A DNA stretch of 59,646 nt, counting the filler, from Sphacelaria rigidula (lineage: Eukaryota), in assembly GCA_964200075.2 (NCBI GenBank). It is 8 parts of 8 records of this genome, joined end to end, with 100 filler letters (N's around TTAATTAATTAA, not from the genome) between each part and the next. Parts side by side here need not be neighbours in the genome. Positions count along the whole stretch, not along the records: positions 1 to 7,369 come from CAXNAA020015223.1; positions 7,470 to 14,838 come from CAXNAA020015224.1; positions 14,939 to 22,307 come from CAXNAA020015225.1; 5 more parts are not named here. One strand, 5' to 3'. The notes beneath the pieces were generated by a model that saw only the letters and a program-made list of their open reading frames with translations, was not told where the DNA came from and did no database searches. Of the stretch, positions 5,050 to 52,179 are shown in pieces. Made by a program: the position numbers and the translations under genes. Positions within the stretch are counted from its first letter, which is position 1. The number at the start of each line of letters is the position of its first letter.

Positions 5050-6040
5050 CGAGGGTAGGTCGAGTAGAGTATACTCAATATTCAGTATTTTCGAAGAGTC
5101 AAACTTTTGTACTCAAACTGTGAGTAGAGCATTTGAGGTCGTACTTAATCTACCCAATTTTTTTAGTAGCGTAGTTGAGACCATACTCAATCTACGGTAC
5201 TCGAAATTTGAGTAGAGTATTTGAGGTCGTGCTCGATCTACTCAAATTTTGAGCCGAGTATTGGACGTCGTGATCGACCTACTCAAACTTTGAGTCAGGT
5301 ATTCGAGGCCGTACTCGACCCACTCAAAACTTTGAGTAGAGTATTTGACGTCATACTCAATCTACTCACAATTTGAGTGGAAAATTTGCGGTCATACCCG
5401 ATCTACCCAAATGTTGGGTAGAGTATTTGAGGCCCGACCCGATGCACCGAGAATCTATAACTTTAACTTCAGTGTTCAAGTTCGTACACAAGATACTCAA
5501 ACTCGGGTAGAGGGAATACGGAGGAAGTATTGGGCAGTCGAAGTCTTGCACTGTTCACTCTCCTACACGCTTACTTGATTTTTTTATGGCTATCATTCGC
5601 TCATACTCCTTGTAGCCTGTAACGCAACGCCACCCATCTAATTGAAGGCCATCGTTCGCCCATGTATTCAACATAGTCTGAAGTGACGTCACGAAGTCGC
5701 CGACGGTCACGGATACTCACCATACCCAAGTGATGCTCTATACTCAAGTATTACTGAGAGTGCTTACTCAAAATTCGAGTAAAGTACTTGAGGTCGTACT
5801 AGATGTACTCAAAATTTAACTAGAGTATTGGAGGCCGTGCTCGACCTACTCAAAATTTGACTAGAGTATCGAGGTCATACCCAACTGATATTCTACACTC
5901 AAGTATTTCTGAGGGTGCTCACTCAATATTTTAGTAGAGTAAATTTGAGTCGAGTATTTGAGGCCGTACTCGACCTACTCAAGTACTCGAGTATTTTACT
6001 CGAGTACTCACAAAAACATACTTTACTCGACCTGCCCTTG
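5050..6040. mobile_element. Non-autonomous TIR element (hAT-like) with arrays of a 41-bp internally palindromic repeat
   Basis: Imperfect ~21-bp TIR (GAGGGTAGGTCGAGTAGAGTAT / ATACTTTACTCGACCTGCCCTTG). Tandem unit GAGTAGAGTATTTGAGGTCGTACTCGATCTACTCAAATTTT at ~5100-5510 and ~5740-6010. Degenerate A-rich 8-bp flanks. Confidence 0.7.
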
Positions 6041-6786
6041 GAAAAATCTCGTCCATCGAAATTTGTAACGATCTAAATGAAGTACATGTGTACACTTTGT
6101 CAGTGTCCAACTCCAGAGAAGGGCGTGAAGTTTTGCCGATGAGTACATTTGGGGTGAAAAGCGTGATACCTTAAAAAAAACGGCGGGGAATTTTGCCGAT
6201 GGATGTATGTCGGATGATGAACGTGATACTTGGAAGAACGGTGTGAAATCTTCCGGGTGAAAATATCTCGGTTGATGAGCGCGGATTCGCCTGTACGCCC
6301 TCCGTGACTCTCGCGGAACTGCAAGTTTCCCGTACATCCGTATATCCAAAAGCCCAGAGAAGAACGAGCAGTATGCTGCTGCACTGGTTTGATCCGAATG
6401 AGGGTTTGCGTGACGAATTAATTGTGCGATCGAAAGTCAAACTGGTGGTACGGAAGGTAAATTGGAGGTACTATCATGGAGTACAGCTCGCTACATCTTC
6501 TGGAAATGACGCCGTTCGCCAACGAGCCCTCTCTGCTCTTACAGAAATCGACTCTCTCTTGTAGCTGGGATTGGCGTCTTCGAGGAATACTTGACGGCAA
6601 TGACGACCGTGATTTTCACATACCTCGACAGGCGTAACACGCATTCTCGTACTAAATCCCCCCCCCCCCCCCATGCTCCGTCTCGAAAGGGATGCGTGGT
6701 CAATGGTNNNNNNNNNNAAGGGGCGTCGGGCTACTTGCCGAAACAGAAAGTCAAACAGAGAAGACAGCCCCCCCCCCCCCCCCCCC

Positions 6787-7083
6787 ATGATGAGACACCC
6801 ATGAGGCAGCGTAAAAGCCGTGACTGTCTCTGGAGGTGGCGATACCAGACGGTAAAGCAACTCATTGTAGGCTGTCATCCAAATGCAAGATATTCAGTAG
6901 GCTTGAACAATCTTGGCAGGATGCAGCTCACCCGTCATGCGACTCGCCTAACACACCATGGCGCTTCGCGCTTGGTGGTTTGAGTGCGAGCCTGGTGCGG
7001 CGAAAACCCGGCGTGCTCCGTCCCGGCTCTGTAGGGGTGCGAGGTCAATGGTCAGATGACTGTGGCATGCATGATCATAAGTA
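6787..7083 (+). mobile_element. Poly-C-flanked repeat family A, 5'-truncated copy
   Basis: Aligns with the copies at 11546-12064, 14371-14798 and 21851-22307; C-runs at 6768-6786 and 7084-7091. Confidence 0.85.
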
Positions 7084-7369
7084 CCCCCCCCTCTCCCACT
7101 TCTCATGTTTTGGATGTCGTTCGATTCCACTAGTCCAATAAGAGGGGTGTCAGCGCGTCGCCGGTTGACGCGTAGTCTGTCAACCGCGGCCGTAGCGGAC
7201 CTGTCCGTAATGTATCGACGTGTTTCGGTAAAACGACTTTGATTTTCGGTCATACAGATCGCTCAGCTGCAGGGTAGAGAGATGAAACCCCCCCAAGGAA
7301 GAGTGATGCGGAAGAGACCCCCCCAGCCCACCCCACCCCCCAGGGGACCCGAAACAGCCAAGCGCCGCC

Positions 7370-7469
7370 NNNNNNNNNNNNNNNNNNNNNNNNNNNNNNN
7401 NNNNNNNNNNNNNTTAATTAATTAANNNNNNNNNNNNNNNNNNNNNNNNNNNNNNNNNNNNNNNNNNNN
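7370..7469. other. Artificial contig spacer
   Basis: N44-TTAATTAATTAA-N44, with stops in all six frames. Confidence 0.99.
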
Positions 7470-7705
7470 GGCAGGCATGGTTAATGGTCAAACGACTAAG
7501 GCAAGCAACAAATGAGTACGCCCCCCCCCGCTCGCCTCTCCATTTCGACCAGATTTCGTCATCGCAGAGTGCCAAGTCATTATCCACCAGCCGATGTTTG
7601 CTCCATCTTCGAGTACAACCACCCGACATCCTGACCCCAAACTCTTTCGACCTCCCCGAACACCTCCCCCCCTCTTCCTTCCTCGTCTCCCCGCCGCATG
7701 CTCAC

Positions 7706-7999
7706 CTGCGCGAGATACTTGAGGCTCTGTATTTGATCTATCGGGATGTTAGTGTTGATCTCCGGCTTGGGTTCTCTCGGAATGTCGAGCTGCTTCCGCA
7801 TACGCCCCGTCAAACTCTCCCCCATGCCCTTCTGGAACGACCCCATGCTGCTCTTCCGCCGTAGCGGCGCCGTGGCTTGGATACTCGAATCCTCGCTCGC
7901 GGGGATAGAGGCTAGCTTCTCCGCCTCCTGAGGAATGGCAGGAATCGGTAGTGGGGGCATCGAGGCCGCCCCTGGTGCCGGTGGCAGCTGCTGTTGCTG
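7706..7999 (-). CDS. Exon of a probable protein kinase gene (ends at the start of a putative catalytic domain; gene truncated by contig end)
   Basis: Pyrimidine tract plus AG acceptor and CAG|GTGAGC donor; phase matches the upstream exon. The exon ends NIPIDQIQSLKYLAQ, which resembles the lead-in to the kinase glycine-rich loop (inference). Confidence 0.65.
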
Positions 8000-8904
8000 C
8001 TTGGAAAAAAAAAAGAAGAGGAAAAGCGGCGACAACAAGAACGGCCGTAATAGGAAGAGAAGGGGAAGACAGGTGTTAACCCTGTTACCGCCCGCGGTCT
8101 TCTGTTCCGAGGATCCGGCCTCGGACAGATCCGCCAGTTTTTGGAGTATGATTATCGTGTGAACGTCGATGGCTCCTAGTAGGCAGGATAGGCGCTCAGA
8201 TCAAATTGTGAGCAGGAGTGTGTACGGAGGAAATTGCGCTTTTTTCCCTTTTGCTCTGAGATCAACAGTAAAACGAGTTTGAAGCAAAGAAGGACAAAGA
8301 AAACAGCTGATTCTGACGAGGAATCAAACCAACGTGTTCGCGTTGCAAAATACATCGTCTTCCTCCCTCAGAAGCCAACTTGAAGAAAAAAATCGTGTTT
8401 TGAAATCCGTGGAAAATTCGCCACGGATTACGCTGTAAATCCGTACCAGGAGCCGTACTATGAGTCCGTCCGAAGCGGAATGTGCGCGGATCGAGTCCCC
8501 GCACCTGTTACTTTTTCGTGTTCCTTCTTTTATTCATGTTTCTTTTTCGTTCTGACGCTACAGTCTTCAATCCGTAGAACCACGGTTTTATCCGTACATA
8601 TCTCTCATTGTGAGTTTGACCAATGGGGTTGCAGCGCCCGACTGTGAGGCAGCTCTCTGCCTACACGGTAAAAACGCAAAAGCCGATCGAGGTCGCGCTC
8701 CCTTCCCCAACCCAGCTCTCAATGCCACGAGCCCTCGCTCGGGCAGCGGGTGTTCGTGAGGGGTGCAAGGTCATCGTTGCGGTTCTACGCGCGTTGCTTC
8801 AGAGAGAGAGTCAACGTGCCGTGCTCCTCCTGTATCCGTTGGCTCTCGAGAGGGGGGGGGGAATGTCCGCCAGCCTTGAGACACAAATCACAACATCACC
8901 TGAC

Positions 8905-9117
8905 CATACCGCCGTACCGTACGAATGAATCCTTTGACTTTGTTTTCAGCGCTGTAACCCACGTACGCGCACCCCACGCACGTGGAATGGCGTAAAGATT
9001 GCGTGCATCGTAGACTTTTTTCGACCCTGCATCCACCGTTCCCCTCCCTTTCGAGCAATCACGCCTCAGAAGTCGTAGATGTAGTATTCGAACCAACGGT
9101 AATTACTCCCTCTCTTG
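8905..9117 (+). mobile_element. hAT-like MITE family H, degenerate or truncated copy
   Basis: Similar to 51108-51366 (TCCTTTG..AGCGCTG(T/C)AACCCA..CACGTGGAATGGCG). Confidence 0.7.
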
Positions 9118-9372
9118 AAATACCTGCTCTTCTTCGCAAGTCACCCAAAGGAGAAAATGTACAACATCTGTGTACCGCAATGATGACCTCTCGATATTTT
9201 CAGGTTATAGCTACTGTACCTGTCCGCAGCGATGTCATGCACTTCCCTATATGCGATAGGGGTTTGCGCATGAGAGTAGTGAAACAAATCAGGGGTGAAA
9301 ATCACACTCTCAGGAGGGAGGGCTTGGTGAGGACACTGAAGAGTATGGCTTATGCGATAACCCCCCCCCCCC

Positions 9373-9444
9373 TCCTGCTCCGTCTCGAAAGGGATACGTG
9401 TTAAATGGTAAAACGACAACTAAGGCAAGCAACAAATGAGTACG
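9373..9444 (+). mobile_element. Short poly-C-flanked repeat family B (homologous to the 3' end of family A); other copies at 6673-6707, 7470-7520, 13147-13212 (minus) and 14294-14348
   Basis: CTCCGTCTCGAAAGGGAT..GACTAAGGCAAGCAACAAATGAGTACG between C-runs. Confidence 0.85.
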
Positions 9445-9491
9445 CCCCCGCCCCCGCCCCCCGCCCCCCCGAAAAAAAAAAAATACCTTAC

Positions 9492-9871
9492 CGCTTGTCC
9501 CATACCCTGGACACTCTGCTGTCGTTTGAGCATGCCCATCATGTTGGACGGTGGCACCGGCGCCGCCGGAGCCGGCGCACCGTCACTGCTTCCAGCCCCG
9601 CCGGTCATGCCGCTGTGCGAGTCGGGGGCCGCCAAAACCGCCGCCGCCACCTCATCCCCAGTCGGCTGAAACACTGGCTGATGGCCGCCCATTGCTCCCC
9701 CCGTGGTTGTGACCGTGCTGGTTGTTCCGTCGCTACTTCCGGGGGTCTCCGGTTTCTGTCGCGCCCAAACCTTGTGCACGGTGCGGATGTGGTGTGCAGT
9801 GGTGCTGGAGCCGACAGAAACCGAGGACGGACGGGCGCCGGCGGCTGCGGCCGGGGCGGCTGGAACAGGCA

Positions 9872-9911
<40 letters not shown>

Positions 9912-10030
9912 GCTGGTGGTGGTGGTGGCGATGAAGGCCGGCGAGGCGTGGTCGCCGCACTCTTCGCCTTCGCCTTCGTCTGTCGTGGAACCTGTTTCGC
10001 TGCCGTCTTGAGGACCTAGATTTGCGCTCC
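9492..10030 (-). CDS. Low-complexity exon (poly-Asn, Ala/Thr/Gly rich) of the same probable kinase gene
   Basis: Open frame (ORF 9420-10040); CAG acceptor, with an in-frame alternative acceptor at 10015; GCG|GTAAGG donor; phases 1 then 0 fit both neighbouring exons. Confidence 0.7.
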
Positions 10031-10561
10031 CTGAGGTCAATATTCACAGCGTATTCACATAGGTGTGTATGTATATATATATATATATATGTATTAGGGT
10101 TAGGGGTTGGGGGATATATGCATACATGCAGTGCATGTGTATTTTGTTTGTGTGCAGTGGTTGGTATGATAGTGAAAAGTGAATTGTAAGTGATGCGCTA
10201 CACGACCCGGACATCATATCGTTTCTTTTGCGGTGTGTGTGTGTATGTGTGCGTACGTGTGTAAATATCTACACACGCACTACCTCTGTCAACGAAACAG
10301 TCTCAAGTATTTTAATGTCAACTTACTTAAACCCGGCATTCTCGGACGGTTCACCGCTTTTTGGTGGAATCCATCAACGGGAAGGAAAAAAATTGGAAAT
10401 ATAAATGTATGAATCGACCCCTCCTCCCTCCCAAAAATATAATCAATTTTGGCACGTTATCGGACAAAATGCTGAACTTTTGGCCGGTAGCTTCCATCTT
10501 AGGCCCACACAAATGCCTCCATTCTCTCCCCCCGCCTGCTTCCGCTTCGCTCGTCACTCAC

Positions 10562-10688
10562 CGATAGACTCCATCTTATGGAAGAGGTCAACGATGGCGA
10601 AGGGGTCGCTGGGTGTCACGCCTTCCGCCGTGCTATCGCGGTTCTTGTGCTTCACAACCTTATTCTCATCCATCTCCGCCTCACAGCT
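10562..10688 (-). CDS. Upstream exon of the same gene (SCEAEMDENKVVKHK...DLFHKMESI)
   Basis: CAG acceptor and G|GTGAGT donor; phase 1 joins in frame to the exon ending at 10030. Confidence 0.65.
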
Positions 10689-10961
10689 CTGTCGCGTCGC
10701 AACAGAAAACAAGGCAAAACGCAAATACACACACACAAGCACAAGGAACGCGCATATTTTACTCAGGGGTACGGCTAAGATAACTATACCGTACCGTACC
10801 GTACCGTACCGTACAGACAGTGCCGTCTGTACAGGTAACACGTCGTTCGAGACCTTGATTTGACCACAGTGATGTAAAATATACATGCGCACTTGAATAA
10901 TTTTGTCTTCGTATTTTTAATCCATGGTTCACTGTATGCCTTATTCACCACTTCACACGAC

Positions 10962-11210
10962 AACATTTTCTACAATAGCCCCCCCTCCCCCCAAACCGGC
11001 CCAAAACTGTCACGAAAAAAATGGTCAGTGCCTGATGCTTGGTTTCAGGCTGCATGAAGCGCCTCATACGGGTGATATTGGCGAAAAGGAACCCAAGCGT
11101 GGGAATCCCCAGCTGCTCGTTGTGTTCGACTTGCTTCATTTCGATTTACACGTTAGATTTTGCATCCCCAAACCAGTCACTTTTGTGGGAAGGCTATCGT
11201 AGAAAGTGTC
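10962..11210 (+). mobile_element. MITE family G (GA..TC termini, 4-bp TSD family)
   Basis: TIR AACATTTTCTACAATAGCC / GGCTATCGTAGAAAGTGTC; body matches 54042-54444. TSD is degenerate in this copy. Confidence 0.8.
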
Positions 11211-11545
11211 CAAGCGAACTAAAAAACTGCGCAATGATGCATCATACGCGTTTGCGCGTCGCACTAGCGGAAAACCGGCAGTGTTAAAACGGTGGTATCT
11301 ATGCTCATTACTTAGGGTGTCGGCGACAGACGAACGCGAGGAGCAGAGTAGAACCTCGTCCTCGACACGCCCACGCACACATGCGTCTAGACATCGACAC
11401 TCCGCATGTTGCCGGAAATGTTACCATGGAGCGGATCTTCCGTCACCAACCAACAGTCTGGGCCGAAGATTCAATCCCAGCCTCTGAGAACTCGGCGCTA
11501 CGATCTTAGTCACCAGTTCACCTATATTCTAAAAACGGAGGGGGG

Positions 11546-12064
11546 CGTATTCATCAACTTGTGTGCTGTAGTGACAACATCATTGATCTCGCATCCCTAT
11601 AAAGCCGGGACGGGGCATGCCGGGTTTTCGCCGGAATCAATCATCAAGCGCGAAGCGTGCCGTGATGTGTTCGGCGAGTCGCATGAAGGGAGAGCTCCAT
11701 CCTGCTGATATTGTTCGGTCGGAAGCGTACTGATTACCTTCCATATAGATGACAGCCTCCGATGAGCTGCTTCATTTTCTGGTATCGCAACTTCCAGACA
11801 CAGCCACGGATTCCACACTGTCTCACACATGTCTCACCATTTGAACACCACGTAGTAAGATCATCCCCTATGCGCGGATGTTTGTTCGGTCTCCACCGCA
11901 CAAAACATTTTCTCCACCGCAAAATATGATCTAGCTCGACCACCATCACGATTACCGCAAGAAAAAAACGTAAGCGCAAAACCCGCCGGTAATCTGGCTG
12001 CCTAGCTTACGCGGTGAGTGGCGTGTTTTACAGCGCCGTTGCCAACCGACGTCAACCCTCAAAT
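11546..12064 (-). mobile_element. Poly-C-flanked repeat family A, near full-length copy (~520 bp)
   Basis: The reverse complement aligns end to end with 21851-22307 and carries the common 3' end; G-runs lie on both sides. Confidence 0.85.
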
Positions 12065-12897
12065 GGAGGGGGAGGGGGATTAATGTTTGGCGGGGTATTA
12101 TTGTTCATCACGTAAACCGACATCAAGAAAAGTCAGCACTCGATCTGACTTCGTGGAGACCACAGCCGACGATTCCCATATGGACGAGGATCTCCACTAC
12201 CCACTACCCATGTCGAATGATGAAAAAAATTAATTAGTCAAGGATGTCAATCCCTTCGCCGTCAGGGTAGGGTCATCTGTTGAACATGCATCATCTTCAT
12301 TTCCAAAATAAATATATTGAATAAGATCGCAGATAACCCCACCCTGGCGGTGAAAAGGGTTACATGTACAGGAAGCGAGTACAGCCCGTGCATATGACGA
12401 TTTCGAAATGAATCTTGAGTGAAAAGAGAGAAAGAAAAAACGCTTATGTACAGCACACTCGAGGACCAATTTTTTTTGACGTGGTGTCTGGTGGGCAACT
12501 GTAACTTGACTAAAATAACTGACAATCAACACAAATCTACTTCCACGACGGAGGGTGGAAAGTCGTCGTCTACTTCACTGGAGCTGATCCTTGCGATCGC
12601 CAAAAGTAGTGTGCGGGACTCGTGTGTTGCGTCATACAGAACGAGCGTTCATGCCCGCAGCACACAGATTCACAACAAAAGCAACCCGAGACGTATCCTG
12701 TGCTACAACATCCGCAAGATCTCTCGCACCCCTCCGTGATCACAAACGTAGGCTCGCCTTTCCAGTACCGTCCCCTACTATTGCTTGCATGGGTGTATAC
12801 TGTATGTATTAAAGGCAGTATTGAATAACGACGAAAATGTACAGCAAAGAAAGCTTCAAGCCCAGAAAGCCTTGCTCGTCGTGCAGCTTTTGCAACT

Positions 12898-13253
12898 GGC
12901 ACTTTCTACGATACCCCCATCCCCCCCCCCCAAAAAAAAAAGTGGCTGATTTAGGGAGGCAAAATCTACACGTGAATCGAGATGAAAAGAGCCGAGCACA
13001 ACGAGCTGCTGGGAATTTCCACGCTTGGGTTTGTTTTCGTCAATGTCGCCCATATGAGGCGCGTCATGCAGCCTGCACCCGAACATCAGGCGCTGTATCA
13101 CTATTTCGTTCGTGACGATCTCATTTATTTATTCATTTTTTGGGGGCGTACTCATTTGTTGCTTGCCTTAGTCGTTTGACCGTTGGCCACGCATCCCTTT
13201 CGAGACGGAACATTGGAACATTTTTTGGGGGAGGGGCTATCGTAAAAATATTC
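12898..13253 (-). mobile_element. MITE family G copy containing a nested family B insertion (13147-13212)
   Basis: TIRs GGCACTTTCTACGATA / GGGGCTATCGTAAAAATATTC; flanks AACT/AACC (3 of 4 match). Confidence 0.75.
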
Positions 13254-13444
13254 AACCAGTAGAACTTCCGACCGTCATCATTGTCCTGTCGGTCGCGTAT
13301 TCAACGTTCGTCTTGAATTTTCATTTTTTCAATCGTGTACAGTAAGTTCCTTGCTGTCGACAGCCTTGTGATCCAAGAGCTTCGTGTACACTACCGTAAG
13401 GAGCATTAGTTTTCACAACATGAACAAGTACTTTCATTTTAATG

Positions 13445-14130
13445 TGAGTAGAGTCGTGGGTTCGAATCTCGGTGCAGTCACCCGGTCTGGGGATTTTCCT
13501 CAGACAATGCCTTAACAATGGAGAGCGACTATGTTGTGGGTAGACAAAATTCGATTTCACGGTCGACGAGGCAGGGGATTTCGCGGAAACCCTCTTGCGA
13601 TAAAAAAAAGAAAGGCAAGCACCGCAGAAGGTAAGGTGAGTACGAAAATCAAATGAAAAGAAAAAAAATCGTGTGTTGCCCTTCGTCCTGTGTGACCCCG
13701 GCTGATGCGCCCACATATATCAAAAAGCGTAGACTGGCGTCCAGAATAGATGGGATGGCAACACACACATTGTAGTTGGTAACGTCAGCATCTTGGGAAG
13801 GTTGGGACGTGGGTTCGAATTTCTGCGAAGTCACATGGTCTGGAATTTTCCCCTCACATCATACCACAGTAGTGGAGTGCGACTATGTCATGGGTACGCA
13901 AAGCTCGACTTTACGGTTGACGAGGGGGAGGGAATGCTGAACCCTTCTCGCGATAAAAGAGAGGGAAACAACGCACAGGAAAGGTGAAGAACCAGGAATA
14001 TATATATATATATATATATTGAAAACATCTCCTGTGTTGACCTTCCTGCTGTGTGACCCCGGCTGATGCGCCCACAAATTCCGAAAAGTGAAGACTGGCG
14101 TGCAGAATAGATCGGTATGGCAGCCCACAC
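13445..14130 (+). mobile_element. Two head-to-tail copies of a tRNA-derived SINE-like element (~13445-13768 and ~13774-14130)
   Basis: Each starts with the B-box GGGTTCGAAT (the second copy also has an A-box-like AGTTGGTAA) and shares TGTGTGACCCCGGCTGATGCGCCCACA..AGACTGGCGT..AGAATAGAT. Confidence 0.7.
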
Positions 14131-14370
14131 AATAGGGTAGTCTACCGCAATCAGTTTCAGTATACGTATAGTTACATGAACATTTGCACTAGGGCACATA
14201 CATACACTGGCAACGAGCACGAGCACTCTACCGTTCAACACCGAACAGTTCATATGTCCGCTGAATATCGTGCATTCTGCTCCCTCCCCCCCCGCTCCTT
14301 TGCGATGGTCAATGGTAAAACGACTAACGCAAGCAACAAATGAGTACGCCCCCTCGCCCCCCCCTCCCCT

Positions 14371-14798
14371 CTTTTTGCGCGCTTGCGTTTTTCTCACGGT
14401 AATCATGATGGTGGTCGAGCTGGATCATATTGTGCGGCGTGGAAGAACCTCAATTCCGTGAAAAGGGGATGATCGTACCACGTAGTATTTAAATGGTGAG
14501 ACACCCATGAGGCCATGTGGAATCCGTGGCTGTCTCTGAAAGTCGCGATACCAGAAAATGAAGCAACTCATCGGAGGCTGTCGTCCACATGCAAGATAAC
14601 CAGTACGCTTCGGGTCGAACAATCTTCGCAGGATGTAGCTCGCCCTTCGTGCGACTCGCTGAACACATCACGGCGCTTCGCGCTTGACGCTTGATTGCGA
14701 GCCTGGTCGGCGAAAACCCGGCGTGCTCTATCCTGGCTTTGTAGGGTTGCGAGGTCAATGGCCTCATGTAGGACTACAGCATGCATGATCATGAGTAA
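14371..14798 (+). mobile_element. Poly-C-flanked repeat family A, 5'-truncated copy directly after a family B copy
   Basis: Homologous to the other A copies; C-rich runs at 14349-14369 and 14799-14815. Confidence 0.85.
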
Positions 14799-14838
14799 CC
14801 CCCCCCCCCCCCCCCGGCGCCCCGCCCGGCGTTCGCCC

Positions 14839-14938
14839 NNNNNNNNNNNNNNNNNNNNNNNNNNNNNNNNNNNNNNNNNNNNTTAATTAATTAANNNNNN
14901 NNNNNNNNNNNNNNNNNNNNNNNNNNNNNNNNNNNNNN
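14839..14938. other. Artificial contig spacer
   Basis: N44-TTAATTAATTAA-N44. Confidence 0.99.
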
Positions 14939-15544
14939 CAGTTGAGGGGGGTGTATGAGAGATTAAACACTTGTAGAGGCCTTTTTGACATGCGGAATGA
15001 AAACAAATACGTATGGTGGTGACCTAACCGTTGCTAGTGTGGCGCATAGGAGTCCGTCCATGCTGTAACCTAGAGCACACGCTGGTCGCGCGAACACCTG
15101 GGTACACTACGAGTAGCTTCCCAGAATTATTCCGATATCAGGAGGTCATGCATCTCAAGCTGGACGAGAGTACTTTACCATCAAGCACTTGCCGTTGAAT
15201 TTGAGACCCACGCCATCAACCGCCGACAGCAAAGGTGACACGCAACGCTGTCGGTAGTACGGCCGGCAGACCCGATCATAACTAGCTTTCGTTGCTACCG
15301 TACTCACTCCCGACCGGAGTTCGCAGTTCAATGTTTCCACTCGGCACGCGAAGCCCGTCAGAAAATGGAGCCAACTAAGGAACCAAAGATTATTGTGGGC
15401 CCCGTAAAGATCGGAAGATAATAATGCAGACTAAAACCAAGTATTTTTCAACCAAAAGTTTGAGGAGCCGGGTGAGAGAGAACTTCTACTGAAGAACTGT
15501 GTGGGCATGCTTCTTCATAACCAGCGCAAGAAACGACATATTGA

Positions 15545-15974
15545 AACACGAGATTTTACAAATTGGGGATGGATCCTTTATTGGGGATGAAAACCCGGAG
15601 AATTAAAATCTTCGTATCCACCAAATCCTCGAAGTATTCTTCCATTTCTTCACTTGCTGGTAGCTGTTGACAACTACTACACGCCATACAAATTTGGATT
15701 TCGATAACGGAAATGTCGAGGGCGTAGGTGAAAAAACGTTTTTGGGGGATTTTAGGTGTCCGATCGGACGCCAAAATTGGTTTTTCACTTAGGACCCTGA
15801 CGTTTCGGTTATCGAAATCCAATTTTTTATGGCGTGTAGTAGTTGTTAACAGCTACCAGGAAGTGAAGAAATGGAGGCATACTTCGAAGATTTGGGTTGG
15901 ATTCGAAGATTTCAATTCTTCGGGTTTTCATCCCCCAGTACAAGATATATCCCCAATTTGTAAAATCCCGTGTT
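15545..15974. mobile_element. Foldback/MITE with ~190-bp inverted arms
   Basis: AACACGAGATTTTACAAATTGGGG...CCCCAATTTGTAAAATCCCGTGTT; the arms pair throughout (e.g. CTGGTAGCTGTTGACAACTACTACACGCCATA with TATGGCGTGTAGTAGTTGTTAACAGCTACCAG). Confidence 0.85.
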
Positions 15975-16159
15975 CTTGGCCCCTTTTTTGTTGAATTGTC
16001 ATGATTCATATGTAAAAAAAATAGGGTGAATTATGCCGATTCCGATTCAAGACATCGCCAACGCTGGCGGTCAAAGGGTCAACTTGGAGCACGACAGCGC
16101 TCGTCGGATTTTTCGCATCAATATCGAGGGGCAAGGGGCCTCCACGTCCCGATGTTCTG

Positions 16160-16470
16160 ATGGTCTCAACTGACGCCGTTAGGGTGGAGAGTACGCCGGT
16201 TCGATTCCCGCTCCTACATGTGTTCGACCTTTTCCCTCGAGGTATCTCTTTTCGGCTGTTGGAAGCGTGAGTGACAAAATGAGTGCCACTGAGTTTGTTG
16301 AACGAGAATTGACGCGGTGCGGGAGTGCTGATCATGTCCGCAAGACCGAAGTGCAAAACGCGTACGAGGGAGAGATGAGTTGAACCCCTTGAGACTACGG
16401 CTCGTTCCGAGGAAATGAAGGGAGGGGTCAACAATGTGACGGGAAAGAAAAGGTGTAGAGATCAACTTTG
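16160..16470 (+). mobile_element. SINE-like repeat (related segments at ~39320-39555, 44812-44890 and 49925-50010)
   Basis: B-box-like GGTTCGATTCCC near the 5' end; shared 3' block GAGAGATG(A/G)GTTGA..TTGAGA..ACGG..CCGAGGAA. Confidence 0.55.
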
Positions 16471-17562
16471 ATGAAATATGTGTGTGCCCCTAGATAAAAC
16501 TATCGAGGCATTTTGTTTCTCATGCTTACATTTCGTTATTCCCAGACACTGTACTGTTCCAGAAAAGAGGCAAAAGTACCCTGGCCATCGAAGTCTCCGT
16601 GCCTTTTTACAGATACATCATATCCTTCGTATGAACATACATATTTCGTCGTTGTAAAACATGGAGTCATCAGTACGATATCCATACAATGAGCTGAATA
16701 AGAGCTAAATTCAACACAAACGGGGTGGGGAGGGGGGATGTTCACAACTTTCCGGTAGACGCCGTATTCGATGAATTCTACAAGTTCTCCGATCTACCGC
16801 AACAATACAACAGACGAAACGTTCGGGTCACTTGGCAATTGTGCTTCATGACGTCCGGGAGAGTCCACCATTGGCCGAGAAGCACCCAAAATCTCAAGAC
16901 AGCTACCATGCTCCTCCGCCTCGGTCCCTCTACAAGACTTGTACGCGGGGGCGGACAGAAGAGCAGGTGCACCCTATTTGGGGTTCATGGCTTGCCGAGA
17001 CCGCACCCACTCACAAGCGCCCTCGCGGTACGTACCACAGAGCAATAGCGGCGAAATCAACGTTACCAACTATAGTAGCTCGACAAAATGTGAGGGAAGT
17101 CCAACAACAATGTGTGTGTCATCATCCTCGCTTTAACTCGCAGTAACGACCTCCCTTGCCCCAGACCCTCTCGCTCCCGTCATGGACAAGGCCGATCAAG
17201 GAAGAAGTATTTTCCCCATCATCACAACGTTGTACACCCCGATTTTCTCGACACGATGCGAGGAGACGCGTCAAGTAGCGGCTAGCATCGCACTTAAAAA
17301 AAATCAGACAAACCAGCGCACTCGGAAGCACTCGACATATTTCCCCCCCGCTACACTCCCAGCTTCTGATGCGGGCACGAGTAAGCGCCAAGGTCGCCCC
17401 TTTCACCGACAAAGTAGCGACTGGGCTCTTGTGTCGCTGCTACGCGGTACAAGTCATTCGCGATGATCCCCCGTCAATCAACCGACCCATCAACCGACGA
17501 TCGATCGATCGACAAAAAACGGCGTAGCTCATGAACCATATTGAGCCTCATTTTTGCCCGCT

Positions 17563-18504
17563 TCATTCGATATACTCCTCGGAACTCCCTTCCTCTTCCT
17601 CGTCGCTGACCTCGCCATCGTCACTCGCTCCCTCCTCTTCCCCCGCTTCTGACGAAGACAGCGGAGGCGACGGCGATGCAAATCCCTCACCACCTTCCGG
17701 TGCGCCCAGCTCCTCTCCGAACTCTTCGAGCATGCTCTCCACCTCTTCGTCAAACTCCTCCAAGTCTTCAAGATCACCCTCGTCACCCCCACCCCCACCC
17801 ATTCCCCTCCCAACGCCACCACCATCATCATCATCGTCAAACGAAAAGTCTCCATCCTCTTCCTCAGTCTCCCCTTCTCCCCGTTCGTCAGTCTCCTGAT
17901 CCACATCCTCCCGCCCTAACTCCCCATCATCACCATAGTCATCATAATCACTTTCCTCAATCGTTCCGTGGTCATTGTCTTCGTCTGTTTCATCACTGTC
18001 CGCACTACCGCCATCTCTATCCTCGTCCCCGTCGTCCTCCTCTTCATCATCTTCAGAAGACGTCGCCCCTTCCTCGTCCCCGCGGACGTTCGCCCGCACG
18101 GCTCCAACCCTTCCCGGTCCCCGCTCCCGTCCAGCAGCAGCATTCATGGAGGTATTGGACTGTTGCCCTTTTGCCACCGCAGCTGCCCCCTCCTCCCTGA
18201 GAGCGGTTGCCTTCGCCCTTTTGTCGGCTGCCAACATCACCCCCACCGCGCTGTCGTCATCGCCAACGTCAGTCTCAGAGGCTGCGGCAGGATCGTCGGG
18301 GTCGTCAGACGGCGAATGGGTATCCTGTGATGCTTCCTCGTTGTCGATTTCATCTTCATCTTCGTCGTCGTCGTCGGCATTGAAGGGGACATCAATATTG
18401 TACTCCTTGCCGACACGGGCGTATTCTGCCTTGAGATAGGCGTTGTTCCTGAAGAGGTTGACGAGGGGCTTGGGTGCCTTCGGCAGACCTTTTAACGAGA
18501 GCAT
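17563..18504 (-). CDS. Derlin (Der1-like) gene, last exon: end of Derlin domain plus ~280-aa Asp/Glu-rich tail
   Basis: GCAG|ATG acceptor in phase 0 joins YSWQ to MLSLKGLPKAPKPLVNLF, which resembles the Derlin C-terminal LKTP..L..LF segment; the frame is open to the stop at 17563. Confidence 0.8.
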   Translation of the reverse strand: MLSLKGLPKAPKPLVNLFRNNAYLKAEYARVGKEYNIDVPFNADDDDEDEDEIDNEEASQDTHSPSDDPDDPAAASETDVGDDDSAVGVMLAADKRAKATALREEGAAAVAKGQQSNTSMNAAAGRERGPGRVGAVRANVRGDEEGATSSEDDEEEDDGDEDRDGGSADSDETDEDNDHGTIEESDYDDYGDDGELGREDVDQETDERGEGETEEEDGDFSFDDDDDGGGVGRGMGGGGGDEGDLEDLEEFDEEVESMLEEFGEELGAPEGGEGFASPSPPLSSSEAGEEEGASDDGEVSDEEEEGSSEEYIE

Positions 18505-18718
18505 CTGCGAACATGTCAACATAAAAACAGCAGGATCTCCTTTGCTCATCAACCATACGTGGTAGAAGAGGCGGAACGAGCTTAAATTTTGACCTCTTCA
18601 CAATTGATATCAAGAACGGCACCAAACCCCTCAGAGCAACAATGACATTTCAAGCTCAAGTTTGCTTCAAAAATGGGTTCTCAAAATGGGTTTACACATA
18701 TTTAACCCCTCCTCCCTC

Positions 18719-18972
18719 ATGAGCTAGTGTACCCTATGACTGTCTCTGAAAGTGGAGATACCAGAAGACAAACGCATTCGAGGTTGTCACATGCAAAATA
18801 ATTAGTACGCTTCGGGCCGAACAATCTTGACAGGATGCAGCTCACCCCTCATGCGACTCGCCGGACACATCACGGCGCTTCGCGCTTGGTGATTGATTGC
18901 AAGCCTCGTCCAGTGAAAAACTGGCGTGCACCGCCCGACTTTATAGGGATGGGAGGTCGAATGTCTCAGTAC
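18719..18972 (+). mobile_element. Poly-C-flanked repeat family A copy inside a Derlin intron
   Basis: Homologous to the A copies; C-rich on both sides. Confidence 0.8.
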
Positions 18973-19058
18973 ACCCCCCACCCCCCTCCGGCCCCTCCCT
19001 CCCTCTGGCCGCGGTTCAGCGGGTCGCTCAGCAAATGTACGGCTAGAGTATACTTCAC

Positions 19059-19190
19059 CTGCCATGAATAACCGATCAAAAGGCCGGTGATGTCCACCAG
19101 AGAAACAGCGCCCTCCGTCATATAGGTCTGCAGCACGAAGAAGTAGGGCAAGACCTCGGTCGGAAGCTCGAACATGTCCAGCACGTTCAC
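19059..19190 (-). CDS. Derlin (Der1-like) internal exon
   Basis: VNVLDMFELPTEVLPYFFVLQTYMTEGAVSLVDITGLLIGYSWQ matches Derlin TM5-6, including GxxxG; CAG acceptor, CAG|GTGAAG donor, 132 bp, phase 0/0. Confidence 0.85.
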
Positions 19191-19433
19191 CTGTATGTAA
19201 AGAAAGACAAACATATAAAATGAGCTGATATTGGCCCTGCAAGTGTCGCCGTGCTCCTCTAGGATGACACGAACAACCCAGGATACTCGGCGAATGAAAC
19301 AGTTAGAGCGACCGACCGGGCATCATTTGCTCAATTACTACAACCACAAGCAAACGAGAACCCTAAACGGCGTAGTCCAGCGTAACAATTATCGTCACAT
19401 AGTCAGTGCCAAGAGCTGCGTCTGGTCCGTCAC

Positions 19434-19545
19434 CTTGGTTCCCGCATGCTTTCGGCTCCAGACCATGACCAAAAAGCTGCCCAAGCTGTGGCCCAGCGTG
19501 TATGTAGAGTTCGCGTCGCCTATAAAGTATGTTTGGATCAAGAGA
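19434..19545 (-). CDS. Derlin (Der1-like) internal exon (upstream exons not identified)
   Basis: LLIQTYFIGDANSTYTLGHSLGSFLVMVWSRKHAGTK matches the Derlin LG....LVYVWSRRN motif; CAG acceptor and AAG|GTGACG donor. Confidence 0.85.
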
Positions 19546-20697
19546 CTGCGCGCGCCAAGATGAGAAGACGAAAGTAAGCGGCACATACATTCACCAGACG
19601 CGGGGGTGGGCGGGTGGGATGTGTTTTCAGAGTTGAGAGCATTTTTTTCTATTTCAGGGCGATCAGGGAACAAAATATCTACCCGAAAGGCGGGGCGAGC
19701 GGGCGGGTCAAACAAGGTGCTCATGTACACGAGGGGCGGTGGGGTCGGGGGTGCTATCGTTGGTGCGACGGATGGTAGCTCGTGGAGACGGTATCCGGTG
19801 TTTTTGAAATCGTCTATATACATAAACAAATAAAGCAGAGGAAGCCATAAGGTCGCACCTTGTGGGGTAGAAAAGTTATGACTCAATTTTTACATACCCC
19901 CCCCCCCCCGCGGCCGCGCCCCCTCCCCGCTGCCGACGGGCGCGCGGTCCACGGTCTCCTGACTNNNNNNNNNNTTCGTAGGGATGCGAGGTCAATGGTC
20001 TCATGACTATGGCATGCATGATCATGAGTACACCCCCTCCCCCTCCTCCCACGAGGGATGGACAAGTAACACATCACATCACACGTCTCAGTCGTGACTT
20101 CAGTGGGCCGCATATACAGTTTTTGAAATCACGATTGACTGTTCGCAAAGCACGACTGCATGTAGTGGAACGAAAAAGGCAGCGGTCACAGGCGACGACG
20201 TACGTCTACGCCCCAACCGCACATCACAGTGACAGGCTCTCTCCTAGCAAGATCAACCAATGACTCGAGCTGTAAGTCTCAACCAGCTGAGTACGGTGCG
20301 CTTCGTATGGGTCGCACGTTTATCAAAATGAAATGATACCCGATCAGCTACACCGAACGCGCGCCAAATATGACCCGCACAAGCGTCCAACACATACATT
20401 TTTTCACCAACTCTTTCTGGCAAGCACGCGGTCACCTCTCCTCCATTAACATTTAACGGACTGGTGCGTCGACGAGCAAGGCCTCATCCCCAGATCTCAT
20501 GAGCTTGTGCTGCAGTTGTCTGCGTGTGAGAGGTATTCGGTGCTCTGTTGCACGCTTTGCATGTGTTTCAGTCGCCTGTGTTATACCAGCTCCTCTTCCG
20601 CTAGACTAGCCACTGATACAGGTTGGGTCAGGGTGAGCGACCGGAATTTACTCCCCGGCGATCCTTCACGCCGTTTCACCGAGTTATACCCTGAAAG

Positions 20698-20892
20698 TTT
20701 GCACACCGGAGCTCTGAGATATCAAGAAAGGCTGTATGAATGGGGTCTGATCGATTTTTTTTCGTCCGATATCCAGGGTCCCATGAGGCGCTGTCAGGTG
20801 ACGCCTCCCGGGACCCCCGATATCTGGCGAAAACAATCGAAAGGCCCCACTCATACAGCCCATCCAAATATCTCCGAGTCCCTGTGGGCAAA
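20698..20892. repeat. Long imperfect inverted repeat (foldback)
   Basis: GGCTGTATGAATGGGG..GATATCCAGGGTCCCATGAGGCG pairs with CGCCTCCCGGGACCCCCGATATC..CCCCACTCATACAGCC. Confidence 0.7.
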
Positions 20893-21793
20893 AATTATCG
20901 GTCTATCTTAAAAAAAACGGTATAAAGGATCGCCCATATGCGCGTTGAAGTACACAAATATACGTGCGACGAAGAAAACTGTGCCGGCATCTGGGTGTCT
21001 TCACGCTGGGACCCCGGAAGCCCGTGCAGAGCGGATAAGATTTAAAATAGTATTTCACGCTTTTTTTCCCTTCAACTCGTAGCACCCATATCCACCAAAC
21101 TGCAAAGTTTGAGGATGGTCCGAAGTTTTCACCCAAAGTTACGAGGGAAAGCGTGAAGAGGCTTTCCGGGACTTCGATGCATATTATAGTATCAGTGGAG
21201 ATCCGATGACGCCAAGACCCCACTTCACCAAAACACCAGATTTTGGGGGTATACCTCGATCCTATGCTGACCGCTTTTATCTTTATTTTTCTGCGTTAAG
21301 CCTCATAGCTGATGGCGGTTGTTAAGGTTTGATACGTGATGAGATTGGAAACAAATTGAGTCGGGGAGTCACATTTTCAATATTAGAGCAATTTGAAGTC
21401 CCCTGATTGGCCGAGAAACATTTGCACTTCCAGCGCCACGGCGAAGGACGCAAGAAAAATTCTGGCCGTGCCACACTGTTCCCTTGCTCGTGAGGTGCGC
21501 TATGATACGAAATATGTTTCAGTCGGGTCAGTTTTTGCGTTCTGTATCTGGTGGGGCATGACGTTTGGGCACTCATCCTGAAGCAGCAGCTTGTAGAAGA
21601 AACGACAAAAACAACGAATCTTGAGAATCTTCAAGCACATCAGAAAAACGTTCTGTTGTCGGTAAGACTCTACATTGATTATTGTATGTGGGCAAAAAGT
21701 CACAGAGAAGGCAATCTCGATTCGATTCGGGTCGTGACTTGTTCACTTTAACATGACACAGTTTGCCTATGTGAATTGCCCCCCCTCTCCCCA

Positions 21794-22307
21794 GCCTGGT
21801 CCGGCCAGAACCCGGCGTGCTCCGTCCCGGCTTTGTAGGGGCGGACCCCCAATTGGGTTGGCGTCGGTTGGCGATGACGCTATAAAACACGCCCCTCACT
21901 GCGGAAGCTAGGCAACCAGGTTACCGTTTAATTTTGCGCACTTACGTTCTTTTTGCGGTAACCATGATGGCAGTCGAGCTAGACCAAGTTGTGCGCCGTG
22001 AGAGAATCTCAACTCCGCACAATGGGGATGATCGTACCACGTAGTGTTTATGGTGAGACACCCATGAGGCAGTGTATAACCCGTGGCCATCTCTGCAAGT
22101 CGCGATACCAGAAAATAAAGCATCTCATTGGAGGCTGTCATCCAAACGCAAGGTAATCGGTAGGCTCCGGGCCGAACAATCTTAGCAGGATTTAGCTCAC
22201 CCTAAATGCGACTTGCAGAACACACCACGGCGCTTTGCGCTTGGTGACTGAGTTCGAGCCTGGTTCGGCGAAAACCCAGCGTGCTCCGTCCCGGCTTTGT
22301 AGGGATG
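21794..22307 (+). mobile_element. Poly-C-flanked family A: short fragment (21794-21840) followed by a copy with an intact 5' end, cut by the contig end
   Basis: 5' end GGGTTGGCGTCGGTTGGC matches the 5' end of the 11546-12064 copy; each part is preceded by a C-run. Confidence 0.85.
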
Positions 22308-22407
22308 NNNNNNNNNNNNNNNNNNNNNNNNNNNNNNNNNNNNNNNNNNNNTTAATTAATTAANNNNNNNNNNNNNNNNNNNNNNNNNNNNNNNNNNNNN
22401 NNNNNNN
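22308..22407. other. Artificial contig spacer
   Basis: N44-TTAATTAATTAA-N44. Confidence 0.99.
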
Positions 22408-28445: not shown

Positions 28446-29695
28446 CACACGTGGACAAATAGCATCCTGTGGGGCACGTCTACAGGGTTCAGGGAAACTG
28501 TGTAGTGTTTCTCGCGGGGATCTGGCTGTAGTTGTTTTTTTAGCGCCCCACAGGACGCTTCACAGGGTTTCAGGGAACTTGTGCAGGGTTTCTCGCGGGG
28601 ATTTGACCGTATGGTATTATTTTGTGCCACACAGGGCGCTTCACAGGGTTTTGTCACTCCGTGTAAAATCCATCGCTGTTAATATGCTGTACAGCCTCGA
28701 CAGCGCACATACAATGTACTTCATACAGAATGGGCATGGTACAAAGCAGTAGGACCCGAACTCACGATTTTGTGCATTGGAGTACGTCAGTGCGCACATT
28801 GAGCTACCTGGCTTGTTGTGATGTGATAAGTTCTTTGTGCTTCTAGTATCAAGCAAAAACCTCTCTGCACAAAAGCATACTCGGTTGAGTGATTTTGGTA
28901 GAATGCGCACCACGGGGTTTTCAAAAGCAACGTGCATTCATATGCGAGTTATACACCTTTCCACCAGCATCTCATCACGCCGAGTTTGTGCCGTAAGCAC
29001 AGGTGTGGACGTACACTCGTAACCAATGTGTGGGATCTCTACTCAGCGAAAGCTGTTGAGAAATATCCATCCTTTGAGGCTATAGGATGAGTTGCTCTCA
29101 ACAACTTTTGTTACGTGTATGATCCCATACGCTGGTAACGGTGCAGTATGCGGGATATGCACAGCTGACGCTGCTTGCAATAAATATTTTCTCTTCTGCT
29201 GTTCTAATCCCAAATCTGCCAGTGTGCATGGGATTTGCGCAGCAAAATAAGCTGTTTGAAATGAAACATTTTTTCTCCCCAATTAAATGGGCAAAAAAAG
29301 GATCTATTTTGAATAGGTGCTTCTGCTGTTCGAAATAGATTTTTTTTTGCCCAAATAAAAAGGGCGAAAAAAGGATCTATTTCGAATAGCTTCTCCTGCT
29401 GTCCGAGATAAAGTCATTTTTGCCTGATTTGAATCGGGCAAAAAGAGGATTTATCTCGGACAGCAGGAGAAGCTATTCAAAAATATATATATGTACAGAT
29501 TTTATGCCAAAATAATTTGGAATTTTCGAAATTGGGAAGGCCTCTCCACAGGGTTGCTTGCAGGGTTTCGACAAAAACGCTATGCAAAATGCTATTACAG
29601 GTGCAAGGGTTTGCAAATGCTGTACAGGGGTTTTCACAAAGACTGTGGAGAACTCTGTGCAGCTCGTCCTATAGGGTGCTATTTGTCCACGTGTG
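28446..29695. mobile_element. Non-autonomous hAT-like element (1250 bp)
   Basis: TIR CACACGTGGACAAATAGCA / TGCTATTTGTCCACGTGTG; perfect 8-bp TSD GAGGGGGG; subterminal CACAGGG repeats; right end duplicated at ~29717-29770. Confidence 0.85.
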
Positions 29696-29775: not shown

Positions 29776-29875
29776 NNNNNNNNNNNNNNNNNNNNNNNNN
29801 NNNNNNNNNNNNNNNNNNNTTAATTAATTAANNNNNNNNNNNNNNNNNNNNNNNNNNNNNNNNNNNNNNNNNNNN
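29776..29875. other. Artificial contig spacer
   Basis: N44-TTAATTAATTAA-N44. Confidence 0.99.
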
Positions 29876-31843: not shown

Positions 31844-32080
31844 CACGGTTAGGACGAATCATCACGGGTTTGAATAACCGAATCCACGATTTCTTCGGCC
31901 TGATTGCCNNNNNNNNNNCCAAGGGGTATCCACGCAACTCTTGCGCCATTCCACATGTCTGGATTGCGTGTACCTGGGTTGCAACGCTGAAAACAAAGCC
32001 TAGGGATTGATTCGTCCGATTCGAATCAATTACACTTACCAAGTTATTTCTAGATCTATCATTGATTTGTCCGACCCTTG
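31844..32080 (-). mobile_element. hAT-like MITE family H, in the CNNM intron
   Basis: Termini CACGGTTAGGACGAATC / ATTTGTCCGACCCTTG; perfect 8-bp TSD AAAAGTTT. Confidence 0.9.
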
Positions 32081-51366: not shown

Positions 51367-52179
51367 AGCACTTTCATATTGGTGGAAAGCTTGGCCTAAC
51401 TTTCTGACAACCTCGTTCCTCGTGAGGCGGCCGCTACTGTGTGTGCACCGTACATGACTGGGACTTATGAACCATACCCGCAGTGTACAAGGTTGACCCC
51501 TTCACACTCCGCTTCGATGTAAAATGGATAGATGTCCATGACCTGCAGCATGGTCGTCGCGATAATGCCAGACAGTTAGACCTCAACCTGACGTGATCAT
51601 TGGTGAGACCGGTTCTCATGACGATCAAGCGAACCAAAAACATTATGTAAACCTACCGCTACGGCTCTTCTGCGTCTTTTCATGCTTCTAGAAGAGCGCG
51701 AGGATCAATGCTACGGGTATGGTTGTACGTTTTGCGCAAAATCTTGTCTGCTTCAGGGACTCCAACTGAATCGAGATCCCCCTTCACAAATAAATTCATT
51801 TGGGATATCCCTAGCACATTGGAACAGTAATCCTGGCGTACTCTCACATATTTCATAAGTCGTGTTTTGGATGAGATGGAGGGCTCCTAATAATAATAAT
51901 CTTGGGAAATAAATGTGGTGGGCTTTTGACACCTCGGAATGACTGGCTCTACTCGATGAGACGGTGTCAAGACACCTTTGCGTTTCCCGATGGCTGCAGA
52001 GTTTGTCTTCGCCAATTTTGCATTTTGTCCAAGAATGGTAAAAAACGGTCAGGTAGAGAAAAAATTGCAGTATTATTGATTTTTGACTTGAACGCCCCTG
52101 GACAAAAGTGTAAGTTCGACCCCCCCCCCCCCGTAGCCTGGTCCGGCGAGAACCCGGCGTGCTCCGTCCCGGCTTTGTA

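What the first reader, a model, noticed from the sequence alone, without database searches (positions are those of the whole stretch)
6658..22307. Abundant 3'-coterminal, 5'-truncated element family sitting in poly-C tracts
Seen: about 13 copies (A: 6787, 11546 minus, 14371, 18719, 19975, 21794, 21851, 52135; B: 6673, 7470, 9373, 13147 minus, 14294). A (~520 bp at full length) and B (~75 bp) share a homologous 3' module, CTCCGTC..AGGGATGCG.GGTCAATGGT..GACTA.GGCA.GCA..ATGAGTAC, followed directly by a C-run wherever the 3' end is assembled (21794 is the exception). The 5' ends begin at many different positions, but nearly all follow a C-run. There are no TIRs, no poly-A tail and no obvious Pol III boxes. 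Copies stack in tandem (B then A at 14294-14798), and one B copy lies next to the internal C-run of a MITE. Established: fixed 3' ends with variable 5' truncation typify target-primed reverse transcription, and some non-LTR elements target simple repeats. Inference: a non-autonomous retroposon that targets, or generates, C/G homopolymers. This could explain the many poly-C tracts in the window.
Basis: partly seen in the sequence, partly recalled or inferred. Interest (0 to 1): 0.72.

Follow-up and report, generated by a model that had tools for sequence, protein, structure and literature searches.

The report
Algal poly-C-targeting LINE and its parasite
These repeats are short leftovers of a jumping gene that copies itself through RNA into runs of C, plus a small parasite that borrows its enzyme; the same kind of element was described in the brown alga Ectocarpus in 2025, so this is mostly a known system in another genome.

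Summary
The window is eight ~7.4-kb contigs joined by linkers, and 5 of 12 copies are cut by assembly gaps. B is not a separate family: it is the last ~66 nt of a ~6-kb single-ORF endonuclease/reverse-transcriptase LINE, whose ORF stops 5 nt before a (C)n end. A is a ~561-bp non-coding partner carrying 41 nt of the LINE's 5' end, an unrelated body and the LINE's 3' end; 21794 and 21851 are one full-length copy. Both insert by target-primed reverse transcription into existing C-runs: C-rich target duplications of 10-23 bp in 35 of 138 copies against 12 of 1370 mismatched controls, and empty paralogous sites carry a single C-run. They account for about a quarter of long C-runs (34 of 143), not most. 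The anatomy matches Ectocarpus RTEX-1/-2 and RTEX-N1 (PMC12477816) feature by feature; identity to those consensuses could not be tested. Not found in my searches: short copies start mostly at the base of a predicted 3' RNA domain whose stems, unlike its loops, are conserved between LINE and partner. The scan's index held no earlier finding of this.

The parts
6674..6707 (+). B: LINE 3'-end fragment, starts at the 5' breakpoint cluster; 3' side cut by an N gap; C15 upstream
6786..7084 (+). A copy, 5'-truncated (model 258-561); C19 upstream, C8 downstream
7470..7519 (+). B: LINE 3' end; 5' side cut by contig start; C9 follows
9376..9443 (+). B: LINE 3' end (last ~20 codons and stop), between C-runs
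11547..12058 (-). A copy of the headless, more diverged form (model 63-561), starting at the LINE-5' module; 12-bp C-rich target duplication with one mismatch
13148..13213 (-). B: LINE 3' end inserted in the C-run of a MITE-like repeat terminus; 13-bp target duplication
14306..14347 (+). B: 42-nt LINE 3' end, followed in tandem by an A copy
14369..14798 (+). A copy, 5'-truncated (model 136-560), inserted in the C-run after B; C17 follows
18718..18972 (+). A copy, 5'-truncated (from model 272), with a deletion inside the tail
19975..20031 (+). A 3' end; 5' side cut by an N gap
21793..22307 (+).
21793..21840 (+). 48-nt head, a direct repeat of the subterminal block (about 22257-22304)
21852..21893 (+). 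Module homologous to the LINE's 5' end (35 of 41 identical between majority sequences)
52135..52179 (+). A 5' head (model 1-46) after C13; cut by contig end

Best explanation
An autonomous ~6-kb LINE with one ORF (AP endonuclease plus reverse transcriptase, ~1,360 aa in intact relatives) ends 5 nt after its stop codon in (C)n. Its endonuclease nicks the G-rich strand of an existing C-run, the freed G-run primes reverse transcription on the RNA's C-ending 3' end, and second-strand cleavage about 15 bp away gives a target duplication that starts with the C-run. B copies are this LINE truncated to its last 20-100 nt. A is a non-coding RNA that carries the LINE's 5' module and 3' recognition domain around an unrelated body and is copied in trans by the same protein. 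Each insertion leaves a C-run on both sides, which become new targets, hence the tandem stacks. Shown: partner, shared ends, duplications, C-run targets, 3'-coterminal profile. Inferred: nick position, G:C priming, trans-mobilisation and RNA folding.
For: B extends upstream into an ORF remnant. One contig (L061) runs from endonuclease to the B end over ~4.1 kb and aligns with intact protein P0001 residues 1-1360. Pfam RVT_1 passes its cut-off in 3 of 7 stretches given (E 4e-20 to 8e-12); the endonuclease families match 3 stretches below cut-off; 1 has no match. P0001 is precomputed as PF00078, PF14529 and PF03372. Window B copies translate to P0001's last 11-19 residues. All 4 metagenome loci that reach the ORF end (of 5) finish in the same end plus C-run. 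Search candidates fall toward the 5' side: 1417, 533, 333, 327 (lower bounds). Anchored duplications of at least 10 bp with at least 4 matched non-C bases: 35 of 138 against 12 of 1370 swapped-flank controls; unselected sample only, A 3 of 17 against 0 of 170 and LINE 7 of 21 against 1 of 209. Empty paralogues: 7 unfilled copies of the repeat hit in L014 carry its duplicated C-rich site once; 14 of 14 rows (13 distinct) of unfilled MITE-like termini carry a C-run. The LINE's 5' end follows C-rich sequence in the 21 stretches printed, and A 63-103 matches it at 35 of 41 (score 58, shuffle maximum 35). The 5' module lies 0.8-1.8 kb upstream of LINE 5'-region hits on the same strand in 7 contigs.
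Against: 103 of 138 copies show no duplication by the strict test; pure-C duplications are invisible to it and A copies are 6-18% diverged, but this was not modelled. No orthologous empty allele was seen in the one 3-kb stretch laid on 4 runs. No intact ORF was found in this genome (longest open stretch 330 aa), so current activity is not shown. Some copies lack the 3' domain's interior (window 18718; L163 keeps 13 nt). About 385 nt of A have no match in the LINE parts compared.
Confidence: 0.9

Rival explanations
1. A is a true SINE with an RNA polymerase III head of unknown small-RNA origin and a LINE-derived tail.
For: Size, copy number, LINE-derived tail and no ORF over 49 aa. Dinatale et al. 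leave this open for RTEX-N1.
Against: No A or B box at 1-2 mismatches, and internal T8 and T7 runs that would be expected to stop Pol III. No tRNA. No Rfam family reaches its gathering score. The 5' module matches the LINE's own 5' end.
Confidence: 0.1
2. The elements create the C-runs (tail synthesis or slippage at random sites) rather than seeking existing ones.
For: Every intact end is C-rich; the 3' run is longer than the 5' run in 17 of 32; long C/G runs outnumber A/T runs at 10 or more bases, 77 against 37.
Against: The upstream copy of the duplication already holds the C-run (mean 6.2), unfilled paralogous sites hold C-runs, and 109 of 143 long C-runs have no recognised element end beside them.
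Confidence: 0.1
3. The ~66-nt B copies come from a separate tiny master element, not from repeated truncation of LINE RNA at one spot.
For: 10 of 19 short LINE ends start in a 7-nt window; many B copies are near-identical and stack in tandem (selected by the query).
Against: B matches the LINE end with no diagnostic differences seen, starts vary by several nt, and lengths form a continuum from 18 nt to kilobases.
Confidence: 0.15
4. A is a terminal-repeat element (TRIM, Penelope-dependent retrozyme, MITE or Helitron).
For: A 48-nt direct repeat near both ends.
Against: The repeat is not terminal at the 3' side; duplications are 10-23 bp; no inverted ends, no hammerhead core and no HDV-like motif in my descriptor search; both ends match a LINE.
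Confidence: 0.02

Closest known systems
RTEX-1_Ec32 / RTEX-2_Ec32 (Ectocarpus sp. 7; PMC12477816, supplementary file 3)
   Same: Single EN-RT ORF, (C)n 3' end, C-rich duplications, 5.5-5.9 kb. Ectocarpus-labelled proteins are the nearest named hits (54-64% identity for the top five); one 90% cluster with Ectocarpus members ends in nearly the same C-terminal peptide.
   Different: A different genome (244 Mb draft). Copies here are degraded (75-85% pairwise). The 5' UTR holds a 62-63-nt tandem array that the rows I saw do not mention. Sequence identity to the Ec32 consensuses was not testable.
RTEX-N1_Ec32 (604-607 bp, over 6000 copies, 2.48 Mb)
   Same: Non-autonomous, C-rich duplications, tandem copies, 3' ~60 bp at 83% to the LINE (here 54 of 66 = 82%), and 'weak homology to 5' of RTEX-2' (here 35 of 41).
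   Different: 561 bp here. The 48-nt duplicated head, the headless older form and the breakpoint clusters are not in the text and rows I saw. It may be the repeat earlier called Sower (~2.5 Mb, PMC3145265): my inference from the matching total size only.
Bipartite non-autonomous LINEs (RIME, NARTc, Bov-A, RTESINE; PMC5786205)
   Same: LINE 5' and 3' ends without the ORF.
   Different: A's middle is not LINE-derived in the parts compared, so it is not a simple internal deletion. That 2018 paper lists only RTE, Ingi, Vingi and R2 as sources and does not mention RTEX.
L1/Alu poly(A) system (recalled, no call)
   Same: A homopolymer end primes on a complementary nicked strand, ~15-bp duplications, insertion beside earlier copies.
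   Different: C/G instead of A/T, and a specific shared 3' sequence inside the coding region rather than a poly(A) tail.

Membership tests
Non-LTR retroposon (TPRT) | Fixed 3' end, variable 5' truncation | tested here: met
   18 of 23 A hits reach the 3' end and 2 of 23 the 5' end; LINE candidates fall from 1417 to 327 toward the 5' end
Non-LTR retroposon (TPRT) | Variable-length target-site duplication | tested here: met
   35 of 138 against 12 of 1370, 10-23 bp
Non-LTR retroposon (TPRT) | Autonomous partner with endonuclease and RT sharing the 3' end | tested here: met
RTEX-1/-2_Ec32-like LINE | Single EN-RT ORF, (C)n 3' end, C-rich duplication, 5.5-5.9 kb | tested here: met
   One ORF of ~1,360 aa in relatives, about 6 kb from 5' module to end
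RTE-X clade | Placement with named RTEX references in an RT phylogeny | not testable with these tools
   No clade-labelled references among the 120 listed hits; the paper's FASTA supplements are unreadable
RTEX-N1_Ec32-like element | ~600 bp, non-coding, 3' ~60 bp about 83% to the LINE, C-rich duplication, tandem copies, weak match to LINE 5' end | tested here: met
   561 bp, 54 of 66, 35 of 41
RTEX-N1_Ec32-like element | Sequence homology to the Ec32 consensus | not testable with these tools
   MOESM1 .fa cannot be read
SINE (strict, Pol III) | tRNA, 7SL or 5S-derived head with Pol III boxes | tested here: not met
Bipartite non-autonomous LINE | Carries the LINE 5' and 3' ends, no ORF | tested here: met
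Bipartite non-autonomous LINE | Whole element derived by internal deletion of the LINE | tested here: not met
   No match above shuffles for the rest of A 1-485 in five LINE stretches
MITE / TIR transposon | Terminal inverted repeats, short fixed duplication | tested here: not met
Retrozyme / ribozyme-headed element | Hammerhead, HDV-like or twister motif | tested here: not met
   My descriptors found none; no Rfam ribozyme match at E up to 10; atypical ribozymes are not excluded
Helitron | No target duplication, CTRR 3' end (recalled) | tested here: not met
   Duplications present; end is GAGTAC plus C-run

The most novel reading that the evidence does not exclude
The last 66 nt of the LINE RNA, lying inside the coding sequence, fold into a closed three-way junction that the RT grips. 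RNA trimmed back to that protected domain is itself a complete template, so the most common short insertion is exactly this domain. A likewise keeps the domain and a 5' pseudoknot-like module that marks the RNA's start. This would be a compact, portable signal for a C-run-specific insertion enzyme, and would explain why the C-terminal peptide motif persists in distant relatives (22 of 120 hits). Basis: GTGCTC at the breakpoint cluster pairs with terminal GAGTAC (pair probability 0.95-0.99 for the LINE, 0.74-0.77 for A, on the isolated domain); LINE and A differ at 1 of 42 predicted paired and 11 of 24 unpaired positions (P = 2e-5); 10 of 19 short ends start in that 7-nt window. Against: folding z-scores are only -0.8 to -1.0, two metagenome ends and longer windows fold otherwise, there is no two-sided compensatory change, and shorter copies exist.
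Probability: 0.3. Interest if true: 0.55.

Novelty: new member of a known kind. Interest (0 to 1): 0.3.

Why it matters
For annotation: about 10,000 A copies and 11,000 LINE 3' ends are expected in this genome (extrapolated from 22 and 25 per 540 kb). They sit at about a quarter of long C-runs and at many contig breaks, so gap-cut copies mimic truncation. For retrotransposon biology: it is a C/G counterpart of the poly(A) system, and it supplies the LINE-5' match that the Ectocarpus study noted only as weak. If the 3' domain is a real minimal template, it makes RNA recognition and target choice by this lineage directly testable with a 70-nt RNA.

Tried and rejected
Rfam: whole window at E up to 1 gave 3 sub-threshold matches, none on a copy; one full A copy and five LINE 5' ends at E up to 10 gave 2 and 2 sub-threshold matches. 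Whole-element folding is unremarkable (z -0.6). Resemblances to HDV, hammerhead, twister, tRNA and SRP Alu motifs were considered from recall and not supported. An unanchored duplication test was weaker (28 of 138 above the control's 99th percentile) and was replaced by the anchored one. The A tree is star-like and does not resolve headed from headless copies; only divergence differs (6-14% against 8-18%, with search-derived copies biased low). A first profile search of LINE 5' UTRs found no A match because the stretches stopped short of the 5' end. Sequencing runs: no RNA holder listed. Laying 4 runs on window 10830-13900 showed no orthologous empty allele; the joints seen come from paralogues, and summed depth is not a copy number. 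'Sower' is absent from the Dinatale supplements read. The scan index gave nothing by sequence and one unrelated note by words.
Full report
The window. It is not one locus. N-TTAATTAATTAA-N linkers recur about every 7,469 bases, and 7470-14838 is contig C15224 of a 244-Mb, 27,214-contig draft. The host is probably a brown alga: this is inference from Ectocarpus being the nearest named source of RT relatives.

Element A. A genome search gave 5,715 first-look candidates. Flanks of 30 loci showed that the full element begins with the same block that lies just before its tail. Ten full-length copies gave a 561-position profile with a mean 92% identity to the majority sequence; positions 1-48 repeat 466-513 at 47 of 48. 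So 21794 and 21851 are one copy and 52135 is a head. A has no ORF over 49 aa, no Pol III boxes, internal T8 and T7 runs and no inverted ends, no tRNA and no Rfam family.

Element B. Several B hits continue upstream for more than 1 kb into a decayed reading frame. Walking 5' gave endonuclease and RT stretches. The best database relative, P0001 (1,360 aa, 74% identical over the RT query), aligns along one contig from residue 1 to 1360, and the window's B copies encode its last 11-19 residues. The ORF stops 5 nt before the C-run. Four of five metagenome loci reach the ORF end, and all four finish the same way. The LINE's 5' UTR holds a 62-63-nt tandem array (6-15 units) and a defined 5' end. That end lies 0.8-1.8 kb upstream of LINE 5'-region hits in 7 contigs and follows C-rich sequence in the 21 stretches printed. 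A 63-103 matches LINE +15 to +55 at 35 of 41; the rest of A 1-485 matched nothing in five LINE stretches. A is therefore LINE 5' module, unrelated body and LINE 3' end, with a duplicated head in the less diverged copies (weak tree).

Insertion mechanism. I sampled 54 evenly spaced 10-kb stretches (540 kb, from contigs over 10 kb only). Of 262 distinct profile hits in all loci held, 138 had an intact 3' end and uncensored flanks; the other 124 were dropped. An anchored test needing at least 10 bp and at least 4 matched non-C bases found duplications in 35 of 138 against 12 of 1370 swapped pairs; lengths are 10-23 bp and most start with C's. In the unselected sample the counts are 3 of 17 (A) and 7 of 21 (LINE) against 0 of 170 and 1 of 209. 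Most copies fail the test, as expected for pure-C or decayed duplications, though I did not model this. The upstream copy carries the C-run, so the run predates insertion. Empty paralogues agree: the repeat interrupted in L014 has its C-rich site once in 7 unfilled copies, and the MITE-like terminus hit at 13147 has a C-run in 13 of 13 distinct unfilled termini. No orthologous empty allele appeared in 4 runs over one 3-kb stretch; those runs do show 815, 480, 142 and 74 contigs leaving the B 3' end into C-rich sequence. Nicking of the G strand and G:C priming are inferred from established target-primed reverse transcription, not shown.

Poly-C tracts. 34 of 143 runs of at least 8 C in the sample lie at an element end, against 0.45% of positions in such zones; in the window, 9 of 26. 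The link is strong, but most runs have another or an unrecognisably old origin.

5' ends are clustered. Of 23 A hits, 8 start at 52-70 (the LINE-5' module), 6 at 464-477 (the start of the repeated block) and 2 at 3. Of 19 LINE ends starting in the last 100 positions, 10 start at model 1433-1439. A hand-merged count (11 of 21) gives P = 1e-6, with the window chosen after seeing the data; C-rich flanks can blur starts by 2-3 nt, and several of these copies are in tandem stacks. That spot is the 5' strand of a predicted stem that pairs with the terminal GAGTAC and closes two hairpins in both LINE and A. Using the LINE fold alone to define pairs, A differs at 1 of 42 paired and 11 of 24 unpaired positions, plus two loop insertions (my hand alignment; P = 2e-5). 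Against this: z-scores are near -1, alternative folds appear with longer context, and no change is two-sided. The 5' module can be drawn as a hairpin with a pseudoknot, where the common variants keep pairing on one side only. Both structures are leads.

Comparison with the literature. PMC12477816 (seen: passages, section 5 part 1, rows of supplementary files 3, 4, 5 and 8; FASTA files 1-2 unreadable) describes Ectocarpus RTEX-1/-2 as single EN-RT ORF LINEs with (C)n ends and C-rich duplications. It describes RTEX-N1 as a ~605-bp non-autonomous partner with a 60-bp tail at 83%, weak homology to the RTEX-2 5' end and tandem copies. Every listed feature is met here. Clade placement and direct homology could not be tested, so the system works like RTEX-1/N1 and is very probably a relative, but membership is inferred. 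The unread FASTA and figure 1C may already show the head repeat or the 5' match. PMC5786205 (passages) defines bipartite non-autonomous LINEs and does not mention RTEX. PMC3145265 (passages) mentions Sower at ~2.5 Mb. Six answered searches (listings only, apart from those three papers) showed no account of the breakpoint clusters or the 3' domain; the library lacks Repbase Reports and most subscription journals.

Verdict. A real feature and a new member of a known kind, with a few testable mechanistic details. Interest 0.3.

Noticed in passing
window 7370-7469, 14839-14938, 22308-22407, 29776-29875, 37244-37343, 44712-44811, 52180-52279: Linkers joining size-sorted ~7.37-kb contigs; neighbours across a linker are unrelated, and many contig ends are poly-C or repeat ends.
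   Followed up: yes
window 10979-11210, 12900-13116, 44154-44347, 54206-54444: A ~230-bp MITE-like repeat with a C-run just inside each terminus; a second source of poly-C tracts and a target for the LINE.
   Followed up: partly
window 13455-13769 and 13808-14131: Two tandem copies (73% alike) of a high-copy ~330-bp repeat with a B-box-like motif near the 5' end; other copies run into (CA)n at the 3' end. Possibly a tRNA-derived SINE of another LINE partner.
   Followed up: no
window 22408-23500 and beyond: By eye, a decayed Ty3/Gypsy-type pol fragment (RT and RNase H-like motifs) at a contig start; not searched.
   Followed up: no
window 8915-9110, 31843-32083, 46300-46367, 51105-51367: A further dispersed repeat of about 200-260 bp, in both orientations.
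   Followed up: no
L182 51-961; L185, L186 (reverse strand): The LINE 5' UTR holds a 62-63-nt tandem array of variable copy number (6-15) after a pyrimidine tract, recalling promoter monomer arrays of other LINEs.
   Followed up: partly
P0012, P0017, P0024, P0029, P0037 and others: Relatives only 34-40% identical still end in a CVVNG-like motif (22 of 120 hits); a conserved peptide or a conserved RNA signal inside the ORF.
   Followed up: partly
L163 (reverse, near 7599) and window 18718-18972: Copies that keep the extreme 3' end and C-run but lack the interior of the 3' domain.
   Followed up: no
window 37395-37440: A possible degenerate very short LINE end before a C20 run near a contig start; below profile threshold.
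   Followed up: no
window 5110-5982, 28482-28651, 29251-29464, 20630-20780: Local tandem or inverted repeats; the 29.3-kb one gives sub-threshold microRNA-precursor matches.
   Followed up: no
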